61,496 nt of DNA. Origin: a virus. The stretch lies in the UHGV virus genome UHGV-1354897; one strand, 5' to 3'. The position numbers and the translations under genes are program-made. The notes under the pieces are model-generated. The model saw only the letters and a list, made by a program, of their open reading frames with translations. It did not search any database and was not told the origin of the DNA. Numbering within the stretch: the first letter of the stretch is position 1; the number at the start of each line of letters is the position of its first letter. Of this stretch, positions 1-61,490 are shown one piece after another.

Positions 1-54
1 CCATAAACTCGTCAAATAATACCAATAGGTACTATATACATTAATAATAAATCC
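1..54. repeat. terminal direct repeat, left copy (identical to 61437..61490)
   Basis: Exact 54-nt identity between window start and end; sequence diverges at position 55. Confidence 0.8.
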
Positions 55-10451: not shown

Positions 10452-11320
10452 TGACTATGCCAACTAATTTCCACTTTGACGCGAGCAGCTATCAAGCACC
10501 TTCTTACGGCGCATTGCCGAAAGGTTGGTATAAAGCAGTAATTGAAGCATCTGAATTTAAACCGACCAAAAATGGCGGTATAGCAATCCAGGTAACGTTT
10601 AGCATCATTGATGGTTTTGCTAAAGGTCGTAAAATCTTTGCTCGTTATAACGTTATCAACGACAACGAAGATACTGTGCGTATCGCTTACGAGCAACTGG
10701 GCGCTCTTTCCCACGCTGTAGGCGTAATTCGCTGGGATACCCCTGCTCAACTGCACAACATTCCGCTGAACCTGCGTCTGAAAGTTCGTTCTCAGGAAGG
10801 CTATGAAGACAGCAACGAGCCGAACGGTTACGCTAACATCAACGATCCGGTTAAGTATGCAGAAAAAGAAGCAGGTGCTCCGGCAATGGGTGCTCAAGCA
10901 GCAGTAGCCAACCCGTTCGGTGCAGGTGCTCCAGCACAGCAGCCAGCATTCCCGGGCGCAGCACCGCAGCAGCCAGCAGCTAACCCGTTTGCTCAGCAAC
11001 AGCAAGCTCCGGTACAGCAACAGCAGCAGCCAGTTCAGCAGCCTGTTCAGCAACCAGCACCGCAGCAGGGCGCAGCAGCTCAACCGTGGCAGAACGCAGC
11101 ACCGCAGCCGTGGGATAATCCTGCTCAAAACGCAGCGCCGCAGCAGCCAGTTCAGCAAGCTCCGGTACAACAGCCAGTAGCACCGGAAGCAGCTCAGCAG
11201 CCGTGGGCGCAGCAGGTAGCACAGCCGGGTCAGGCAGCAGCACCACAGCAGCAAGCGCAGCCACAGCAGCAAGCTGAACCGCATCCGGCACAAGCAGCAG
11301 TCCCGCCGTGGCAGCAGTAA
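10451..11320 (+). CDS. DUF669-like phage protein (putative ssDNA-binding) with a long Gln/Pro/Ala-rich C-terminal tail
   Basis: Globular N-terminal ~140 aa, then ~150 aa of low-complexity Q/P/A repeats with PWQ/PWD motifs. Confidence 0.5.
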   Translation: MTMPTNFHFDASSYQAPSYGALPKGWYKAVIEASEFKPTKNGGIAIQVTFSIIDGFAKGRKIFARYNVINDNEDTVRIAYEQLGALSHAVGVIRWDTPAQLHNIPLNLRLKVRSQEGYEDSNEPNGYANINDPVKYAEKEAGAPAMGAQAAVANPFGAGAPAQQPAFPGAAPQQPAANPFAQQQQAPVQQQQQPVQQPVQQPAPQQGAAAQPWQNAAPQPWDNPAQNAAPQQPVQQAPVQQPVAPEAAQQPWAQQVAQPGQAAAPQQQAQPQQQAEPHPAQAAVPPWQQ

Positions 11321-14866: not shown

Positions 14867-14953
14867 AGATAAGGGGTTGCGTGTCACAAAATCCTTTGGT
14901 ACATTTAACCCCGTTGGTAACAAACGAACCCATAACAATTCGGAGTGAAGAGA

Positions 14954-15757
14954 ATGAGCAACATTGAAGACAAAAAAGCTGCTGCCGCAGCCGCTGCTGC
15001 CGCCGCTGCAAAATCTGCTAAACCTGCAAAGAAAGAAGCTACTGTGAATGATGCAGAAGCTAAGAAAGCCGCAGCCGCTGAAGCTGCACGCGTAGCAAAA
15101 GAGAAAAAAGAAGCAGAGAAAAAAGCTGCCGCTGAAAAGAAACAAGCTGAAATCCGCACTGAAGCGGAAAACAAATTCAATGCGATTGCTAACGCTGCTG
15201 AAATCCTGAAAAACTCTTTGGCTACCGTCACCGACGAAAGCACTGTTGAACAGATCACGGAAGCGGAAACTCAGGGATCTGCAAACCTGAAGACCATTAA
15301 AGAAGCTCTGAAAGAGCTGAAAGCTGTCGTTAAGAAGTCTAAAGGTGAAGACCTGTCCGGTGCTGTAACTTCTGCTCAGGGCCTGGTGGATGGTCTGGAA
15401 GCTACTATTAAAGGCTTCAAAGACAAGATCCGTGCTGCAAAACAGGCAGAAAAAGAAGCGGAAAAAGCGCGCGCTAAAGAGCTTCGTGAGAAAGAAAAAG
15501 AAGCTAACCGTATGCCGGAACAGAACGGTGTTCGTCGTCCACAACCGGAAACTTCCTGCGGTCGTGCCTGGGCTCTGATGGACCAGATTAGCGCTACGCT
15601 GGGTCAGCCTGCTCCGATCTCTTATGTTCTGAACCTGGCTGGTCGCCATGGTCTGAACGAAGATACCATTAAAACTCAGTATGCACGCTGGAAGAAATTT
15701 AATGGTGTGACTGGTCGCGTACCTGTACCCGTACCGGAAGCCCTGAACGGCTTGTAA
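14954..15757 (+). CDS. Ala/Lys/Glu-rich low-complexity protein with a conserved C-terminal domain (paralog of 60060..60674)
   Basis: GGAG RBS before ATG at 14954; run of 12 consecutive Ala codons; C-terminus aligns with the 60060..60674 product. Confidence 0.65.
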   Translation: MSNIEDKKAAAAAAAAAAAKSAKPAKKEATVNDAEAKKAAAAEAARVAKEKKEAEKKAAAEKKQAEIRTEAENKFNAIANAAEILKNSLATVTDESTVEQITEAETQGSANLKTIKEALKELKAVVKKSKGEDLSGAVTSAQGLVDGLEATIKGFKDKIRAAKQAEKEAEKARAKELREKEKEANRMPEQNGVRRPQPETSCGRAWALMDQISATLGQPAPISYVLNLAGRHGLNEDTIKTQYARWKKFNGVTGRVPVPVPEALNGL

Positions 15758-15782
15758 TATCAAAACATATCACGTTATAATG

Positions 15783-15810
15783 AAAGCGCCCAATGAGGCG
15801 CTTTCTTTTT
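15783..15810 (+). terminator. intrinsic terminator
   Basis: Hairpin AAAGCGCC-CAATGA-GGCGCTTT followed by CTTTTT. Confidence 0.8.
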
Positions 15811-15826
15811 CACTAGAGGATTTAAG

Positions 15827-16534
15827 ATGAATATTAATCAACAAGCTCCCGAGTCTCGTTCTAAAGAAAACGATATGTATTTAGACGTGCATTCGGTATT
15901 CTCTACCATTCAGGGTGAAGGTCCATTCTGCGGTCAACCTGCGGTATTTGTGCGCCTTGCTGGATGTAACCTGCAATGCCCGGGCTGCGACACGGATTAT
16001 ACTGTTGGTCGTTCTCTTTACCACATTGTTGATATCATGCGTTTAATCGAAAGCCGTAAGCTGGAATCTGGCAATAGCACCTCACTTGTGGTTATCACTG
16101 GGGGCGAACCATTCCGCCAGCAAATTAACCCGTTTATTGAACAACTGTTATCACGCGGGTATCTTGTGCAGATTGAAACGAATGGGTCTATGCCTTTACC
16201 TAAGAACTTTTCCCAGCTACCTGTCATTGTATGCAGTCCTAAGACTTCAAAAATTCATCCTACTGTGCTGTACCGAGCAAACGCATTTAAATATGTGCTT
16301 AAAGCGTGCTGTGTAAACGTGGAAGACGGTTTACCGCTTCAGGCATTAGATCATCAAGCTACGCCATTTATCGCTAGACCTCCGAAGGGGTTCAAGGGTA
16401 AGATATATTTACAGCCAATGGACGAGCAGGATGAAGATCTTAACCACAGTAACATCCAAGCGGTTGTCCAAAGCTGTATGAAACACGGGTACACGTTGCA
16501 GCTTCAGGTTCACAAATATATCGGGGTGGAATAA
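15827..16534 (+). CDS. queE: 7-carboxy-7-deazaguanine synthase (radical SAM)
   Basis: QueE-like N-terminus FSTIQGEGPFCG and cysteine cluster CNLQCPGCDT. Confidence 0.8.
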   Translation: MNINQQAPESRSKENDMYLDVHSVFSTIQGEGPFCGQPAVFVRLAGCNLQCPGCDTDYTVGRSLYHIVDIMRLIESRKLESGNSTSLVVITGGEPFRQQINPFIEQLLSRGYLVQIETNGSMPLPKNFSQLPVIVCSPKTSKIHPTVLYRANAFKYVLKACCVNVEDGLPLQALDHQATPFIARPPKGFKGKIYLQPMDEQDEDLNHSNIQAVVQSCMKHGYTLQLQVHKYIGVE

Positions 16535-17201: not shown

Positions 17202-17924
17202 ATGAACAAATTAGATAAACTGGTATTCCCTGTAAAAAATCATAACTCCGCCGTTGTGGTCCTGTCTGGCGGTCAGGACAGCGTGACCTGTTTAGGTCTT
17301 GCACTTAATAACTATGATAAGGTTTACGCTATTGGTTTTGCATACGGTCAACGTCACACTGTGGAATTAGCTTGCGCTGAACAGATATGTAAAGAACACG
17401 ATGTCCCATTTGTTGTCTTTGAATTACCTGCTTTGAAACAGATTGGCAATAGCGCTTTAATTGGGAACGAAGGTGATGTTAACGAACATCACGAACAGCA
17501 CAACAACCTTCCAGCAAGCTTTGTGCCAAACCGTAATGCTCTTTTCCTGACTACCGCGCACGCCTACGCGCAGAAAGTTGGTGCCCGATATGTGGTTACA
17601 GGCGTCTGTGAAACAGACTATAGCGGTTATCCGGATTGCCGCCAGCAGTTTGTAGACTTGCTTGAAGCTACGTTAAACGTTGGATATGAAACAGATATTC
17701 ATTTCGTTACCCCGCTTATGCGTTTAAATAAAGCAGAAACGTTTGAGCTGGCGGATAAGGTTGGCTTCTTAACCACAGTAATTGAACAGTCCCATACTTG
17801 CTATAACGGTGTCCGTCGCACTCTGCATGACTGGGGCTATGGTTGCGGTGAATGCCCTGCGTGCAAACTGCGTGCTAAAGGGTACAGTGAATTTATGGAT
17901 AACGCTTACAGCAAACACGTTTGA
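17202..17924 (+). CDS. queC: 7-cyano-7-deazaguanine (preQ0) synthase
   Basis: PP-loop VVLSGGQDS and C-terminal zinc site CYNG...CGECPAC; standalone, no fused amidotransferase domain. Confidence 0.85.
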   Translation: MNKLDKLVFPVKNHNSAVVVLSGGQDSVTCLGLALNNYDKVYAIGFAYGQRHTVELACAEQICKEHDVPFVVFELPALKQIGNSALIGNEGDVNEHHEQHNNLPASFVPNRNALFLTTAHAYAQKVGARYVVTGVCETDYSGYPDCRQQFVDLLEATLNVGYETDIHFVTPLMRLNKAETFELADKVGFLTTVIEQSHTCYNGVRRTLHDWGYGCGECPACKLRAKGYSEFMDNAYSKHV

Positions 17925-18044
17925 TCTTACCGCGAAAACCGCACCGCTAGCGCATTGTTTAGGGTGCGGGAACCCAACTATACTACTAAACCTTTTAAAC
18001 CCAACAACCAGCGAATAACGCTGTTAAAACTGGAGAACAAAAGT

Positions 18045-18524
18045 ATGAAATTTATCGTTGCTTATCTGGCTGCAATTACATTCGTAAACCTGGGCTTTTC
18101 CTACCTTCCAATGCTCAATACGCCTCTTGGCGTGGTCCCGATGATGGCTTTCTTTGTAGGTATTATCTTTGTGTTGCGTGACTACGCACAGCGTAACGCT
18201 GGTAAAGGCGTTATCCCTGCAATGATTGTGGGTTGCATCCTTAGCTGGGTATTTGGGGATCCTGCTGTTGTAGTTGCATCCGTTGCATCCTTTGCTCTTA
18301 GCGAGTTTGCGGACTATGCGGTATACACGATTACTAAGAAGCCGTTTCATCAACGTGTATTTATTAGCTCTTTGGTAGCTGTACCGATTGACTCCATTGT
18401 GTTCTTAAGTATTATAGGTATTGTTAATCCGGGATCAATGGTAGCAATGAGCTTAAGTAAGTTCACAGCATCTGCTATTCTTTGGGTTGTTTACGAAGTT
18501 CATTCACGTACAGCGAGAGCGTAA
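18045..18524 (+). CDS. putative queuosine-precursor transporter-like membrane protein (YhhQ/DUF165-like)
   Basis: Multi-pass hydrophobic protein directly after queC; family assignment from context and general resemblance. Confidence 0.45.
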   Translation: MKFIVAYLAAITFVNLGFSYLPMLNTPLGVVPMMAFFVGIIFVLRDYAQRNAGKGVIPAMIVGCILSWVFGDPAVVVASVASFALSEFADYAVYTITKKPFHQRVFISSLVAVPIDSIVFLSIIGIVNPGSMVAMSLSKFTASAILWVVYEVHSRTARA

Positions 18525-18526
18525 AA

Positions 18527-19114
18527 ATGAAAGATAATTTGAATAAGATTTGGCACCAACACGACGGTAAAGGGATGCCTATTTTTCTTCGTAATGAGAA
18601 GTTTGAAGTTCGTTTGCGCAACGGCACACACGTTAAGAATTTATTAGATGGATGGGATTGGGCTATGGAAGGGCGTTCAGCTATGGATGAAAATAGCCCT
18701 TATAAAGTTCAAGATATTATAGCCTGGCGATATATCGTTGCGGATGATTACGTCAAACAAGCTAGCGAAAACACTCGCTCCGGATTGTACCATCAAGCTT
18801 CTGAAACAAGCATAAGTAATACATTTAATGGTGCAGTTTTTACGAAATATGAACCATCTAAAATTCCCATGAATAAATATCAGAAAATTATTTATGGTAA
18901 AGATCAAAACGGCAATGTTGTAAAGTGCATCGTGGATGTGTATGATGTCTTGGAAGCTTGGAAGACAACTAACCCAGCTTTGCAGCATTTAATTAAAAAA
19001 GCGTTGCAGCCGGGCGAACGCGGTCATAAAAGTCTGGTAGAAGACTTGAAAGATATTATTGCATCCGCACAGCGTGCATTAGAAATTGAACAGTCTAAAG
19101 AGGTATTAAAATGA
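18527..19114 (+). CDS. hypothetical protein inside the deazaguanine cluster (candidate tailoring enzyme)
   Basis: 196-aa ORF between the transporter-like gene and queD; no motif recognised. Confidence 0.6.
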   Translation: MKDNLNKIWHQHDGKGMPIFLRNEKFEVRLRNGTHVKNLLDGWDWAMEGRSAMDENSPYKVQDIIAWRYIVADDYVKQASENTRSGLYHQASETSISNTFNGAVFTKYEPSKIPMNKYQKIIYGKDQNGNVVKCIVDVYDVLEAWKTTNPALQHLIKKALQPGERGHKSLVEDLKDIIASAQRALEIEQSKEVLK

Positions 19115-19647
19115 GCTATACAGTAATTCGTTCACATGAAATTTGCGCCGGACATCGTGTTGTAGGTCACGAAAGCAAATGTCGCCACCTCCACGGTCAC
19201 AACTATAAGTTTCACTTTAAGGTTGCTCCGAAGCATGGATGCGGAAAAGTAGTGACACGAGGAAAGCTGATTGAGGACGGTCTGGACAGCGTTGGGCGCG
19301 TGATTGACTTTAGTGTGGTTAAAACTACGCTCTGCCAGTGGCTAGAAGATAACTGGGATCATAAGTTTCTACATTGGGAAAAGGATATGTTGATCAACGG
19401 ACTGCAATGTTGTATTGAAACGGATACTCAATCTGAACGCGGTTGGCCTACTTTCGGTGAAGGGGATGAAGATCTTAAAGCTTTTAACGATTCACTGGTA
19501 TCTTTGCCGTTCAACCCAACTGCGGAAAACCTAGCTGCATATATGGTTGAAGTGATTGGTCCGCTACTGCTTGACGAACATGGCGTTCAACTTGTAGAAT
19601 GCACCATCGAAGAAACTTCGAAATGTCACGTAAACTATAGCCTGTAA
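19111..19647 (+). CDS. queD: 6-carboxy-5,6,7,8-tetrahydropterin synthase
   Basis: Motif CAGHRVVGHESKCRHLHGHNY typical of QueD/PTPS; longer than bacterial QueD. Confidence 0.75.
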   Translation: MSYTVIRSHEICAGHRVVGHESKCRHLHGHNYKFHFKVAPKHGCGKVVTRGKLIEDGLDSVGRVIDFSVVKTTLCQWLEDNWDHKFLHWEKDMLINGLQCCIETDTQSERGWPTFGEGDEDLKAFNDSLVSLPFNPTAENLAAYMVEVIGPLLLDEHGVQLVECTIEETSKCHVNYSL

Positions 19648-19678
19648 TATGACCACATTAACAAGGAAACTGCAAACC

Positions 19679-20287
19679 ATGTCAAAATTTACTATTAATG
19701 ACGAAAGTATTCAATTTGAAATTACTCGCGCGGTGCGCGCTTTACTAACTCGAATTGAAAATTGCACTGAATTACGTCCAGGTTTGGAAGAGACTCCATA
19801 TCGTGTCGCTAAAGCCTATGCTACATGGTTCGGCGGTTATAATGTGGATATTGCTGGTCTGTTTAAGACCTTTGAAGACGGGGCGGAAGGTTCAAATGAA
19901 ATGGTCATCGTCCGTGATATTCCAGTTTATAGCCATTGTGAACACCATATAGCCCCTATTATCGGTCGCGCTGTTGTGGGGTATGTTCCTAACGGTCGCA
20001 TTGTGGGGCTCAGTAAACTGTCTCGCGTTGTGGATGCTTTTAGTCGTCGACTGCAAGTTCAGGAACGTCTTACTAACCAGATTGCTGACGCTATCCAGGA
20101 ACACCTGAATCCGAAAGCTGTATGTGTTTATATTGATGCCAAGCATATGTGCATGGAGTCGCGCGGTGTTAAGCAGGTATGCGGCAGCTCTACTATTACC
20201 AAAGCGTTCCGGGGCGCTACAGAACTGGAGCATGGTAGCGATATTGGTAAAGAATGGCGCCGGGAGTTCCTCGAAGCTTGTAAATAA
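19679..20287 (+). CDS. folE: GTP cyclohydrolase I
   Basis: FolE signature YSHCEHHIAPIIGRAVVGYVPNGRIVGLSKLSRVV; AAGGAA RBS favours ATG at 19679 over 19649. Confidence 0.85.
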   Translation: MSKFTINDESIQFEITRAVRALLTRIENCTELRPGLEETPYRVAKAYATWFGGYNVDIAGLFKTFEDGAEGSNEMVIVRDIPVYSHCEHHIAPIIGRAVVGYVPNGRIVGLSKLSRVVDAFSRRLQVQERLTNQIADAIQEHLNPKAVCVYIDAKHMCMESRGVKQVCGSSTITKAFRGATELEHGSDIGKEWRREFLEACK

Positions 20288-20304
20288 TAGATAGCTTTAC
20301 AGAT

Positions 20305-20343
20305 CAAGCCCATATCGGTCATAATACTGGTATGGGCTTTTTA
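20305..20343 (+). terminator. intrinsic terminator candidate
   Basis: Stem CAAGCCCATA...TATGGGCTT with long loop followed by TTTT. Confidence 0.5.
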
Positions 20344-20358
20344 GTCATTGGAGGAAAT

Positions 20359-20565
20359 ATGGTAAGACAATACTTTTTCAACGTTCGAGCTGTAGAAAAA
20401 GGTACTTTCAGAGTTCTGTTATGTATGGACGGTATTGCTGAAAGCAGTAACGCAAAACAAATTCATGCGGATCTGCATGTTAGAGTTGAACAGATCTTAA
20501 GCGAGCAATGCTTTAAGAAAGAAAATTATCTCATTGAAGTAGTCGCTTTAAACAACGTGGAGTAA
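20359..20565 (+). CDS. hypothetical protein
   Basis: GGAGGA RBS before ATG at 20359. Confidence 0.55.
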   Translation: MVRQYFFNVRAVEKGTFRVLLCMDGIAESSNAKQIHADLHVRVEQILSEQCFKKENYLIEVVALNNVE

Positions 20566-20568
20566 GAA

Positions 20569-21489
20569 ATGAACGTTTTTATGGCAGCAGTTTACACAAA
20601 CGGATATATGCCCGGGCAGCAGCGCTATGAAAAGCTGTCCGAGCATGAGAAAAATATCACGCGCAATCTGCCCCATATTTTGGAATCATACCACTACGTT
20701 GGACGTCAGAAGTATGTTGATCAAATGCGTGCGGATGGGGCTAAAGTGTTTCTCGACTCCGGTGCATTCTCCGCGCACTCGTTAGGTGCTCACATTGATA
20801 TTGTTGAATACTGCGAATACATCAAGCGCAACAAAGACATCCTTCGCGTAGAAGATGGTGCGGTGATGGCGTCAGTGCTCGATGGTATCGGTGATCCGTT
20901 GCAGACCTACCGTAACCAACTTGAAATGGAAGCACGCGGTGCTAAACCGTTACCTTGCTTTCACTTTGGGGAGGACTTCCGCTATCTTGAATACTACATG
21001 AAGAACTACGAATATATCACCATCGGGGGCATGGTAGGACGTTCCACAGACACGCTTAAAACTTGGCTGGACCGCATGTGGGACAAATACATTTGCGACG
21101 GTAGCGGACGTGCTAAGATTAAACTTCATGCGTTTGGTATTACGTCCACAACCATTATGGAACGTTATCCGTGGTATAGCTGTGACTCTTCCTCCTGGAT
21201 TCAAGCAGCAGCGTTTGGAAGTGTGGTTACTCCTCCGTGGGGCCCAATGCGCGTATCAGATAAGTCACCGGACCGCCATCATTTTGGTAAGCATGTTTCA
21301 ACATTAACTGAAATTGAACAAGACGCTGTCCTTAAATACCTTGAGCAAAACGGTTTCACTTACGAACGTTTATCAACAATCTATGAATCACGTGCTGCCT
21401 TCAACTTATGGGCGTATGGTGTAATTGCTACAAACATTAACGCTACCCATGACGGCACATTCCGTGATCGTGTAATGGAGTTATTTTGA
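20569..21489 (+). CDS. dpdA: DpdA-like 7-deazaguanine DNA transglycosylase (TGT superfamily)
   Basis: TGT-like motif FLDSGAFS; sits directly after folE/queD in the modification cluster. Confidence 0.7.
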   Translation: MNVFMAAVYTNGYMPGQQRYEKLSEHEKNITRNLPHILESYHYVGRQKYVDQMRADGAKVFLDSGAFSAHSLGAHIDIVEYCEYIKRNKDILRVEDGAVMASVLDGIGDPLQTYRNQLEMEARGAKPLPCFHFGEDFRYLEYYMKNYEYITIGGMVGRSTDTLKTWLDRMWDKYICDGSGRAKIKLHAFGITSTTIMERYPWYSCDSSSWIQAAAFGSVVTPPWGPMRVSDKSPDRHHFGKHVSTLTEIEQDAVLKYLEQNGFTYERLSTIYESRAAFNLWAYGVIATNINATHDGTFRDRVMELF

Positions 21490-61436: not shown

Positions 61437-61490
61437 CCATAAACTCGTCAAATAATACCAATAGGTACTATATACATTAATAATAAATCC
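61437..61490. repeat. terminal direct repeat, right copy (identical to 1..54)
   Basis: Exact 54-nt match to the window start. Confidence 0.8.

What the first reader, a model, noticed from the sequence alone, without database searches (positions are those of the whole stretch)
18045..18524. Phage-borne YhhQ-like membrane protein next to queC suggests salvage of host preQ0/preQ1
A multi-pass membrane protein directly follows queC. If it is a queuosine-precursor transporter, the phage could import precursor as well as make it, which is odd for a phage that already carries the full de novo pathway. I looked for a preQ1 riboswitch in the 120-nt leader (17925..18044) and found only a short GGGT...ACCC hairpin, not a convincing aptamer.
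Basis: partly seen in the sequence, partly recalled or inferred. Interest (0 to 1): 0.5.

Follow-up and report, generated by a model that had tools for sequence, protein, structure and literature searches.

The report
Phage copy of preQ0 transporter YhhQ
The gene is a real, compact phage version of the bacterial YhhQ transporter for queuosine-precursor bases, sitting in the DNA-modification gene cluster of a Seuratvirus; it is already annotated and has been deleted experimentally in the near-identical phage CAjan, so the finding is correct but ordinary.

Summary
ORF 18045..18524 (+) encodes a 159-aa, six-helix membrane protein 120 nt after queC, inside a complete queE-queC-X-queD-folE-dpdA cluster. 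The window is a Seuratvirus genome about 94% identical to known E. coli phages.

The protein is 98.7% identical to the "putative preQ0 transporter" YhhQ of phage CAjan. Deleting that gene left dPreQ0 DNA modification unchanged (Kot 2020).

It falls just below Pfam's Vut_1 cut-off (25.5 vs 27.2 bits) and far below the NCBIfam equivalog cut-off. A profile-profile comparison with canonical YhhQ still gives 95% probability (E 2e-8). Topology, conserved motifs and an ECF-S-component-like predicted fold agree.

It belongs to a compact phage subfamily (PHROG 4899) under strong purifying selection (dN/dS 0.01-0.05). In several phages and prophages that appear to lack preQ0 synthesis genes, the gene abuts dpdA. 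This supports a role in supplying 7-deazaguanine base to DpdA.

No sense-strand preQ1 riboswitch is present. This was tested with Rfam and with my own type III model, because Rfam missed the E. coli control.

One oddity: the leader contains a partial reverse complement of the host yhhQ riboswitch core, probably by chance.

Transport itself is untested. Verdict: already known, low interest.

The parts
18045..18524 (+). yhhQ-like gene: 159-aa compact six-TM member of the Vut_1/COG1738 (YhhQ, QPTR) superfamily, PHROG 4899
   Evidence: ORF and translation. Pfam Vut_1 E 1.9e-5, 25.5 bits against a cut-off of 27.2. PHROG 4899 E 4e-48. hhalign against canonical YhhQ: probability 95.3%, E 2.3e-8. dN/dS 0.013-0.05. 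Topology.
18032..18035 (+). Shine-Dalgarno GGAG, 9 nt before the ATG
   Evidence: Read from the sequence; invariant in 8 Seuratvirus leaders.
17925..18044 (+). 120-nt leader between queC and the yhhQ-like gene; no sense-strand riboswitch. It precedes the tightly packed run yhhQ-like / orf195 / queD / folE.
   Evidence: Rfam scan gave 0 hits at E<=10. My own type III preQ1-I model found nothing on the + strand. Fold z-score -0.73. The leader is absent in Vibrio phage 83AMN, where queC and the gene overlap by 4 nt, and is unalignable in EC151.
17939..17969 (+). GC-rich hairpin after queC (CCGCACC ... GGTGCGG), without a U-tract; annotated as a rho-independent terminator in phage SA80RD
   Evidence: Fold. 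Stem kept in yong3 with changed sequence. SA80RD annotation. Not called by the terminator scan.
17985..18044 (+). Strongly conserved 3' half of the leader, including a small hairpin (CAGCG 18009-18013 / CGCTG 19-23) whose loop varies, followed by the SD
   Evidence: 91.7% identity to Hafnia phage yong3, against 61% region-wide and 75% for the CDS. Alignment.
17954..17977 (-). Partial reverse-complement look-alike of the enterobacterial yhhQ preQ1-I type III aptamer (P1 plus loop, no A-rich tail); probably chance
   Evidence: Pattern hit with 2 mismatches. CM 11.6 bits, E 1.6 window-wide, against 42.7 bits for the E. coli control. One more mismatch in CAjan, SA80RD, SHIN8 and slur01. Duplex energies.
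17202..17924 (+). queC (7-cyano-7-deazaguanine synthase), upstream neighbour
   Evidence: Pfam QueC E 7e-75; TIGR00364 243 bits, above cut-off.
15827..16534 (+). queE (radical SAM 7-carboxy-7-deazaguanine synthase)
   Evidence: QueE NCBIfam models E 2e-27, below their cut-offs. Annotated QueE in WildeMaa.
18527..19114 (+). orf195 of unknown function. It starts 2 nt after the yhhQ-like stop and overlaps queD by 4 nt.
   Evidence: Sequence. PHROG 23361 E 2e-99, no Pfam match.
19111..19647 (+). queD (6-carboxytetrahydropterin synthase)
   Evidence: Pfam PTPS E 5e-22.
19649..20287 (+). folE (GTP cyclohydrolase I)
   Evidence: Pfam E 2e-61; NCBIfam above cut-off.
20569..21489 (+). dpdA (DNA guanine transglycosylase that inserts preQ0), the presumed consumer of the imported base
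   Evidence: PHROG 887 E 1e-95. 99.7% identical to CAjan DpdA.

Best explanation
The gene encodes a functional, compact (159 aa, six TM, N-in/C-in) inner-membrane protein of the YhhQ/QPTR (Pfam Vut_1, COG1738) superfamily.

By analogy with E. coli YhhQ, it most likely imports a free 7-deazaguanine base from outside the cell. That base would be preQ0, possibly also preQ1. The import would add to the preQ0 pool that the phage's own FolE-QueD-QueE-QueC pathway makes, and that DpdA exchanges into phage DNA as dPreQ0.

It probably works as a solitary, ECF-S-component-like carrier. Uptake would be pulled by consumption of the base inside the cell.

Unlike the host yhhQ, it carries no preQ1 riboswitch. 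It would therefore not be shut off when deazaguanine levels rise during infection.

Shown here: homology, topology, purifying selection, linkage to dpdA, and absence of a sense-strand riboswitch. Inferred: substrate, direction of transport, and benefit to the phage.
For: Homology:
- Pfam Vut_1 is the only family hit (E 1.9e-5).
- All 32 diverse members of the short subfamily hit Vut_1, best E 4e-8.
- phmmer reaches 187-193 aa proteins that a source names queuosine precursor transporter, E 1e-13.
- hhalign of the subfamily against 25 canonical YhhQ sequences gives probability 95.3%, E 2.3e-8, over 121 columns (phage residues 5-128 against E. coli 18-166). Charged and polar motifs align: RDYAQR/TDLTVR, AS/AS, D90/D125, S108/S145, D116/D153, F120/F157.

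Architecture:
- Six TM segments with 9 K+R inside against 0 outside, the same topology reported for E. coli YhhQ.

Selection:
- 38 synonymous against 2 non-synonymous differences to CAjan, dN/dS 0.013; 0.10 against yong3.
- 19 invariant residues across the subfamily.

Context:
- tblastn found the gene in 77 phage records.
- Every one of those phages checked also encodes a DpdA or DpdA-like protein.
- It directly abuts or overlaps dpdA in Vibrio phages PS25B.1, BUCT006 and 1.173.O and in a Shewanella prophage.
- It is adjacent to a DpdA-like PHROG 15826 gene in a metagenomic temperate phage, and one gene away from one in Arthrobacter phage Aoka.
- The complete genomes of PS25B.1 and Aoka have no tblastn match to FolE, QueD, QueE or QueC.

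Literature:
- E. coli YhhQ transports preQ0 and preQ1.
- CAjan carries dPreQ0, and its YhhQ is annotated as the transporter.
Against: - The sequence is below Pfam's gathering score (25.5 against 27.2). It is far below the TIGR00697 equivalog cut-off (21.7 against 50.95), as is the whole short subfamily.
- Pairwise BLASTP to E. coli YhhQ is not significant.
- No transport assay of any phage YhhQ was found.
- The CAjan yhhQ deletion mutant has wild-type modification levels and restriction resistance in rich medium, so no phenotype supports the role.
- Many DpdA phages manage without it, including Nonagvirus 9g and Pseudomonas iggy.
- Hutinet 2019 saw no correlation of YhhQ with any phage group.
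- Substrate specificity varies within the family; Chlamydia QPTR takes queuine, not preQ0.
Confidence: 0.65

Rival explanations
1. It is a true YhhQ-family carrier, but with another substrate or direction. Examples: a different 7-deazapurine or purine base, queuine, or export of surplus preQ0 or of the guanine released by DpdA.
For: - The subfamily is distinct from characterised QPTRs and falls below the equivalog cut-off.
- Specificity differs between characterised family members.
- Zallot 2017 found subgroups that track the salvage type.
- Deletion does not lower dPreQ0, which an exporter or a non-preQ0 carrier would also explain.
Against: - In several phages and prophages the gene abuts a DpdA or DpdA-like gene. 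The two of these fetched as complete genomes have no detectable preQ0 synthesis genes. There, import of the base DpdA needs is the simplest reading.
- No export activity is known in this family.
Confidence: 0.15
2. It is a membrane protein retained for a reason unrelated to deazaguanine transport (for example superinfection exclusion or membrane remodelling), or it is an effectively dispensable passenger.
For: - CAjan delta-yhhQ is viable and fully modified.
- PHROG 4899 is labelled 'unknown function'.
- In VpKK5 and Rhizobium phages the gene sits in the replication module, away from dpdA.
Against: - dN/dS of 0.01-0.05 and 19 invariant, mostly polar or charged intramembrane residues argue for a conserved molecular activity.
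- Homology to a transporter family.
- Repeated adjacency to dpdA across unrelated phage types.
Confidence: 0.12
3. The leader is a preQ1 or preQ0 riboswitch that controls the transporter, as in the host.
For: - Host yhhQ genes carry a preQ1-I type III aptamer.
- The 3' half of the leader is unusually conserved.
- It has a 5-bp hairpin followed by an A-rich stretch and the SD.
Against: - No Rfam hit. My own type III model scores the E. coli control at 42.7 bits and finds nothing on the + strand of the leader.
- The small hairpin loop is 5 nt with no conserved C, too short for the H-type pseudoknot. This point rests on my own knowledge of preQ1-I structures.
- Fold energy is ordinary, z -0.73.
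- The leader is missing altogether in Vibrio phage 83AMN.
Confidence: 0.03
4. The + strand leader RNA acts in trans as an antisense to the host yhhQ riboswitch. It would either block the aptamer from folding or trigger cleavage of the host message.
For: - 17960-17977 is complementary to the invariant aptamer core, with 10 contiguous bp plus 5 more.
- Duplex energy is -42.6 against -24.3 +/- 4.0 for shuffles, 0 of 300 as good.
- The hit lies exactly in the leader of the phage's own yhhQ homologue.
Against: - The CM score is only 11.6 bits, E 1.6 window-wide.
- 0.34% of genome windows pair as well.
- The complementary run is broken by a G-to-T change in CAjan, SA80RD, SHIN8 and slur01, and is largely lost in yong3.
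- The segment is sequestered in the leader's own GC-rich hairpin.
Confidence: 0.03

Closest known systems
YhhQ of Escherichia phage CAjan (AJT60526.1, 'putative preQ0 transporter') and the BASEL Seuratviruses (e.g. WildeMaa bas23_0042, 'preQ0 transporter YhhQ')
   Same: 98.7-100% amino-acid identity, same length, same position between queC and queD, and the same leader.
   Different: Nothing of substance. The window is another isolate of the same genus. Only the slot downstream differs: one orf195 here against two small genes in CAjan.
E. coli YhhQ / QPTR (P37619; NF008406, TIGR00697), the preQ0/preQ1 importer
   Same: Same superfamily (hhalign 95.3%). Six TM with cytoplasmic termini. Shared polar motifs in TM2, TM4 and TM5. 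Genomic linkage to 7-deazaguanine genes.
   Different: - 159 aa against 221 aa. It lacks about 20 N-terminal residues, a roughly 20-residue insertion between TM3 and TM4, and the long C-terminal tail.
- About 22-25% identity.
- Below the equivalog cut-off.
- No preQ1-I type III riboswitch upstream.
- Its product would feed a DNA transglycosylase rather than tRNA-guanine transglycosylase.
Solitary / ECF-type S-components (RibU 3P5N, BtuM 8OVV, YkoE 5EDL, ThiT 4TKR)
   Same: Best structural matches of the AF2 model: small six-helix bundle, 121-139 residues aligned at 3.8-4.1 A. TCDB places COG1738 in the VUT/ECF-related family 2.A.88.
DpdA + YhhQ-like two-gene modules in phages without annotated or detected preQ0 synthesis genes (Vibrio PS25B.1, BUCT006, 1.173.O; Shewanella prophage; Arthrobacter Aoka)
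   Same: Same PHROG 4899 protein (36-48% identity) coupled to a DNA transglycosylase.
   Different: In those phages the transporter is the only phage-encoded route to the base. Absence of the pathway genes was confirmed by tblastn only for the complete genomes of PS25B.1 and Aoka. Here the transporter is accessory to a complete de novo pathway.

Membership tests
Pfam Vut_1 (PF02592, DUF165) / COG1738 | Score at or above the curated gathering threshold of the family HMM | tested here: not met
   25.5 bits against a cut-off of 27.2, E 1.9e-5, covering residues 66-145 only. All 32 subfamily members hit Vut_1 at E<=0.01, best E 4e-8, and no other family consistently. Precomputed Pfam tags list PF02592 for the 99%-identical P0001.
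Pfam Vut_1 (PF02592, DUF165) / COG1738 | Demonstrable homology to canonical members over most of the domain | tested here: met
   hhalign of A1 (short family) against A3 (25 canonical YhhQ sequences including E. coli): probability 95.3%, E 2.3e-8, 121 aligned columns. Against the single E. coli sequence, E 0.0057.
Pfam Vut_1 (PF02592, DUF165) / COG1738 | Six transmembrane helices with cytoplasmic C-terminus | tested here: met
   Six hydrophobic segments; K+R 9 inside against 0 outside. AF2 helices at 2-20, 33-70, 73-97, 101-124 and 129-158. Prediction only; no experimental topology.
Queuosine precursor transporter, equivalog level (NCBIfam TIGR00697 / NF008406 = E. coli YhhQ function) | Score above the equivalog cut-off | tested here: not met
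   TIGR00697 gives 21.7 bits against a cut-off of 50.95; NF008406 has no hit. Other short-family and intermediate proteins score 18.9-38 bits. E. coli YhhQ control: 229.6 and 391.8 bits.
Queuosine precursor transporter, equivalog level (NCBIfam TIGR00697 / NF008406 = E. coli YhhQ function) | Physical clustering with queuosine / 7-deazaguanine genes | tested here: met
   Lies between queC and queD here. Abuts a DpdA or DpdA-like gene in five other phage/prophage contexts and lies one gene from it in Aoka.
Queuosine precursor transporter, equivalog level (NCBIfam TIGR00697 / NF008406 = E. coli YhhQ function) | Transport of preQ0 and/or preQ1 (complementation of delta-queD delta-yhhQ) | not testable with these tools
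   No assay of a phage YhhQ was found in the literature searched. CAjan delta-yhhQ showed no modification defect.
preQ1-I riboswitch-controlled yhhQ (gamma-proteobacterial type III) | Aptamer core UGGGUUCCCU(C/A)ACCCCA plus AAAAAGG tail upstream of the start codon, on the sense strand | tested here: not met
   59 of 61 distinct enterobacterial leaders have it. CM R1 scores E. coli at 42.7 bits and finds nothing on the + strand of the phage leader. Rfam finds nothing either, but Rfam also missed the E. coli control.
ECF-transporter S-component fold | Structural superposition on solved S-components | tested here: inconclusive

The most novel reading that the evidence does not exclude
The conserved leader is more than a spacer. 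Its 5' half (17960-17977, + strand) is antisense to the invariant core of the host's yhhQ preQ1-I type III riboswitch. The phage transcript could pair with the host yhhQ 5' UTR and re-programme or destroy the host transporter message, while the phage expresses its own riboswitch-free transporter. That would be a phage RNA targeting a host riboswitch.
Probability: 0.03. Interest if true: 0.7.

Novelty: already known. Interest (0 to 1): 0.17.

Why it matters
The finding matters little as a discovery. The gene, its name and its position are published for CAjan and annotated in several Seuratvirus records.

It is still useful to know three things:
- The annotation rests on distant homology, below curated cut-offs, and on an unphenotyped deletion.
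- The phage proteins form their own compact subfamily under strong selection.
- The clearest functional clue is the recurrent DpdA-transporter pair in phages with no detectable preQ0 synthesis genes.

If transport is confirmed, this 159-aa protein would be one of the smallest known carriers for a nucleobase analogue. It would also show that phages can draw DNA-modification precursors from the environment.

Tried and rejected
- **Rfam scans.** The leader scan at E<=10 and the whole-window scan at gathering thresholds gave no hits. The E. coli yhhQ leader control was also missed, so I rejected this as a test for type III aptamers. I replaced it with my own covariance model.
- **Sigma-70 promoter and terminator scan.** Nothing was called in the leader. 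Totals for the region were no higher than in shuffles.
- **Leader motifs repeated elsewhere in the genome.** None found.
- **PDB sequence searches.** Neither the protein nor the family profile matched anything meaningful.
- **Structure libraries.** The afdb50 fold library was unavailable. The BFVD search was uninformative apart from one 'putative vitamin uptake transporter'.
- **The search for homologous proteins with E. coli YhhQ.** It listed only relatives of at least 87% identity, useless for a profile. I used the 50%-clustered library instead.
- **Pairwise BLASTP of the phage protein against E. coli YhhQ.** Not significant.
- **Longer TTG start at 17955.** Rejected because all homologues begin at MKFI.
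- **A dinucleotide-shuffle script.** Timed out and was replaced by simple shuffles plus genome-window controls.
- **MMBR 2024 review on 7-deazaguanines.** Not held in the library.

Full report
**1. Observation.**

The ORF is at 18045..18524 on the + strand. It has an ATG start, a GGAG 9 nt upstream and a TAA stop, and encodes 159 aa. It lies 120 nt after queC (17202..17924) and 2 nt before an unknown orf195 (18527..19114). That ORF overlaps queD (19111..19647), and folE (19649..20287) follows 1 nt later. queE (15827..16534) and dpdA (20569..21489) complete the set.

The protein is very hydrophobic (GRAVY 1.03) with six hydrophobic segments. It has 9 Lys+Arg on one side and none on the other, which gives an N-in/C-in six-TM topology.

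**2. What the window is.**

The 2.2 kb around the gene is 90-95% identical to 37 phage records. Nearly all are E. coli Seuratviruses (Queuovirinae), including CSP1, WildeMaa/Bas23, Seurat, slur01, Greed and CAjan.

The protein is 97.5-100% identical to theirs. Several records already name it "(putative) preQ0 transporter (YhhQ)".

The window starts and ends with the same 54 nt, so it is a complete genome closed on itself.

**3. What is already published.**

- Kot et al. 2020 (PMC7544227) describe the twelve-gene CAjan cluster with yhhQ as putative preQ0 transporter. They deleted it by CRISPR-Cas9 and found modification and restriction resistance like wild type. folE, queC and dpdA deletions abolished or strongly lowered modification, with a residual 12-fold lower level from host preQ0.
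- Hutinet et al. 2019 (PMC6884629) searched phages for YhhQ. [quoted passage not shown]
- Olsen et al. 2023 note that CAjan has yhhQ downstream of queC.
- Zallot et al. 2017 showed that E. coli YhhQ is needed for preQ0/preQ1 salvage. They give the rationale for having salvage alongside de novo synthesis: it is cheaper.

**4. Is it really a YhhQ?**

By curated thresholds, not quite:
- Pfam Vut_1 gives 25.5 bits against 27.2, E 1.9e-5, over residues 66-145 only.
- TIGR00697 gives 21.7 bits against 50.95.
- BLASTP to E. coli YhhQ is not significant.
- No solved structure matches by sequence.

A homologue search found 118 proteins. Most belong to a tight group of 153-167 aa proteins on phage-sized contigs. 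More distant hits (E 1e-13 to 1e-7) are 187-193 aa proteins, some of which a source names queuosine precursor transporter.

An alignment of 32 diverse short members has 19 invariant residues, mostly polar or charged ones within helices: N15, R45, D46, Q49, R50, S79, E87, D90, R104, S108, S109, D116 and K139. All 32 members hit Vut_1 and no other family consistently. All of those tested stay below the equivalog cut-off.

To settle homology I needed a diverse canonical set. I took it from an exhaustive phmmer search with E. coli YhhQ against the 50%-clustered library and aligned 25 full-length members.

The two profiles compared as follows: probability 95.3%, E 2.3e-8, 121 columns, phage residues 5-128 against E. 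coli 18-166. The motifs line up:

| Phage | E. coli |
|---|---|
| RDYAQR | TDLTVR |
| A78-S79 | A113-S114 |
| D90 | D125 |
| S108 | S145 |
| D116 | D153 |
| F120 | F157 |

The phage form lacks the N-terminal extension, a roughly 20-residue insertion between TM3 and TM4, and the long C-terminal tail.

Conclusion: this is a genuine but divergent, compact member of the superfamily (PHROG 4899). It is not an equivalog of E. coli YhhQ by curated criteria.

**5. Is it functional?**

Yes, by selection. Against CAjan there are 38 synonymous and 2 non-synonymous differences (dS 0.44, dN/dS 0.013). Other E. coli Seuratviruses give 0.016-0.05, and Hafnia phage yong3 gives 0.10.

**6. What does context say?**

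tblastn finds the gene in 77 of 50,697 phage records. These include Seuratviruses, other Queuovirinae of Vibrio, Enterobacter and Hafnia, Rhizobium Kleczkowskaviruses, and phages of Aminobacter, Sulfitobacter and Arthrobacter. It was not found in Nonagvirus 9g-like or Pseudomonas iggy-like phages, which have DpdA.

Every one of these phages I checked also encodes a DpdA or DpdA-like protein.

Most telling is the direct linkage to the transglycosylase:
- In the Vibrio phages PS25B.1, BUCT006 and 1.173.O, the gene directly follows or overlaps a PHROG 887 DpdA, E about 1e-60.
- In a Shewanella prophage it overlaps a PF01702 TGT-family gene by 4 nt.
- In Arthrobacter phage Aoka it lies one gene from a PHROG 15826 "DpdA-like transglycosylase", and in a metagenomic temperate phage it lies directly next to one.
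- The complete genomes of PS25B.1 and Aoka have no tblastn match to FolE, QueD, QueE or QueC.

A transglycosylase plus this membrane protein, with no synthesis genes detected, is what a salvage-only phage should look like. This is the best indirect evidence that the family supplies DpdA with its base. It is inference, not proof.

**7. The leader.**

- The Rfam scan of 17700-18300 at E<=10 found nothing, and the whole window has no Rfam family at gathering thresholds.
- That test is not valid for the relevant riboswitch type. The E. coli K-12 yhhQ leader contains the published type III preQ1-I aptamer (sequence), yet it also gave no hit.
- I therefore fetched 80 enterobacterial yhhQ loci. 59 of 61 distinct leaders carry the invariant core TGGGTTCCCT(C/A)ACCCCA followed by AAAAAGG. 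I built a covariance model from 39 of them.
- This model scores the E. coli control at 42.7 bits (E 5e-9) and finds nothing on the sense strand of the phage leader.
- The leader's fold energy is ordinary, z -0.73.
- The leader is absent in Vibrio phage 83AMN, where queC and the gene overlap, and is unalignable in EC151.

So there is no sense-strand preQ1 riboswitch.

The GC-rich hairpin at 17939-17969 has no U-tract. One depositor annotated it as a terminator; the scan here did not call it.

The 3' half of the leader (17985-18044) is 92% identical to yong3, against 61% for the region. Among E. coli Seuratviruses the whole leader differs at only a handful of positions, while synonymous sites have diverged by up to 0.44. 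It is constrained, most simply as the promoter or 5' UTR of the yhhQ-orf195-queD-folE block. Other short islands in the cluster are equally conserved, so I do not read more into it.

**8. An oddity.**

Searching the aptamer core in the window gave one hit with two mismatches, inside the leader but on the opposite strand (17960-17976). Read on the minus strand, it keeps P1 (one G-C becomes G-U) and 8 of 9 loop bases, but has no A-rich tail. The CM gives it 11.6 bits, E 1.6 window-wide, the second-best hit.

Read on the plus strand, the phage leader is complementary to the host aptamer. Duplex energy is -42.6 kcal/mol against -24.3 +/- 4.0 for shuffles, though 0.34% of genome windows do as well.

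The run is interrupted by a G-to-T change in CAjan, SA80RD, SHIN8 and slur01, and is mostly lost in yong3. It also lies within the leader's own hairpin.

I rate this as probably chance (about 3% for a real antisense function) and record it as the most novel reading not excluded.

**9. Mechanism, with status of each step.**

| Step | Status |
|---|---|
| (a) A six-TM inner-membrane protein homologous to YhhQ is made from the modification cluster | Shown by sequence |
| (b) It imports free preQ0 (or preQ1) from the medium | Inferred from E. coli YhhQ and from DpdA linkage |
| (c) The base joins the phage-made preQ0 pool and DpdA inserts it into DNA | Pathway shown for CAjan; contribution of imported base untested |
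| (d) Lacking a riboswitch, expression is not repressed by deazaguanines | Absence shown; consequence inferred |
| (e) The benefit shows only when exogenous base is available and de novo supply is limiting | Inferred; would explain the silent deletion in rich medium with an intact pathway |

**10. Verdict.**

The finding is correct in substance, imprecise about "host" preQ0, and already known. The added value here is:
- a proper homology test;
- the definition of a compact phage subfamily below curated cut-offs;
- the DpdA-transporter module in phages with no detectable synthesis genes;
- a valid negative for the riboswitch.

Interest is low.

Noticed in passing
window 1-54 and 61437-61490: The first 54 nt are repeated exactly at the end of the window. 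The window is therefore a whole phage genome of about 61.4 kb, assembled as a circle with a short overlap.
   Followed up: no
L002 6175-6207 (E. coli K-12 yhhQ leader): Rfam 15 cmscan at E<=10 does not report the published preQ1-I type III aptamer upstream of E. coli yhhQ. A model built from 39 enterobacterial leaders scores it at 42.7 bits. Rfam negatives for this riboswitch type are not informative.
   Followed up: yes
window 17954-17977 (-): Reverse-complement look-alike of the host yhhQ riboswitch core inside the phage yhhQ leader. It matches 15 of 17 core bases and preserves P1, but has no tail. The score is borderline and conservation among Seuratviruses is only partial.
   Followed up: partly
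window 17985-18044; also 20261-20360, 19571-19620, 15778-15827: Short islands 92-100% identical to Hafnia phage yong3 in a region that is 61% identical overall. They may be regulatory elements or recombination junctions of the modification cluster.
   Followed up: partly
L007 35639-36872; L009 and L010 19195-20465; L103 4096-5465; L099 5001-6091; L008 29034-30518: Recurrent DpdA or DpdA-like gene next to (one gene away in Aoka, L008) a compact YhhQ gene. These occur in podo-, sipho- and temperate phages of Vibrio, Shewanella and Arthrobacter. No preQ0 synthesis genes are annotated in the stretches fetched. Absence was confirmed by tblastn only for the complete genomes of PS25B.1 and Aoka.
   Followed up: partly
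L008 29558-29887 (Arthrobacter phage Aoka gene 39): A 109-aa protein between the YhhQ-like gene and the DpdA-like gene hits a PHROG labelled GTP cyclohydrolase, E 8e-9. It may be a T-fold enzyme acting on the imported base.
   Followed up: no
window 18527-19114: orf195 between the transporter and queD has no Pfam match (PHROG 23361). Its C-terminal 60-100 residues match several other PHROGs. This slot varies among Seuratviruses: two genes in CAjan, SA80RD, SHIN8 and ECP2304, and a 336-nt gene in yong3.
   Followed up: no
window 14945-15757: A 270-aa protein upstream of queE with an Ala run and Lys/Glu/Ala-rich low-complexity N-terminal half. It matches PHROG 11298 (unknown function) and has no Pfam match.
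   Followed up: no
window 10925-11270: A cluster of imperfect 18-24 nt direct repeats rich in CAGCAGCC, probably encoding a Gln/Ala/Pro-rich repeat region of a protein.
   Followed up: no
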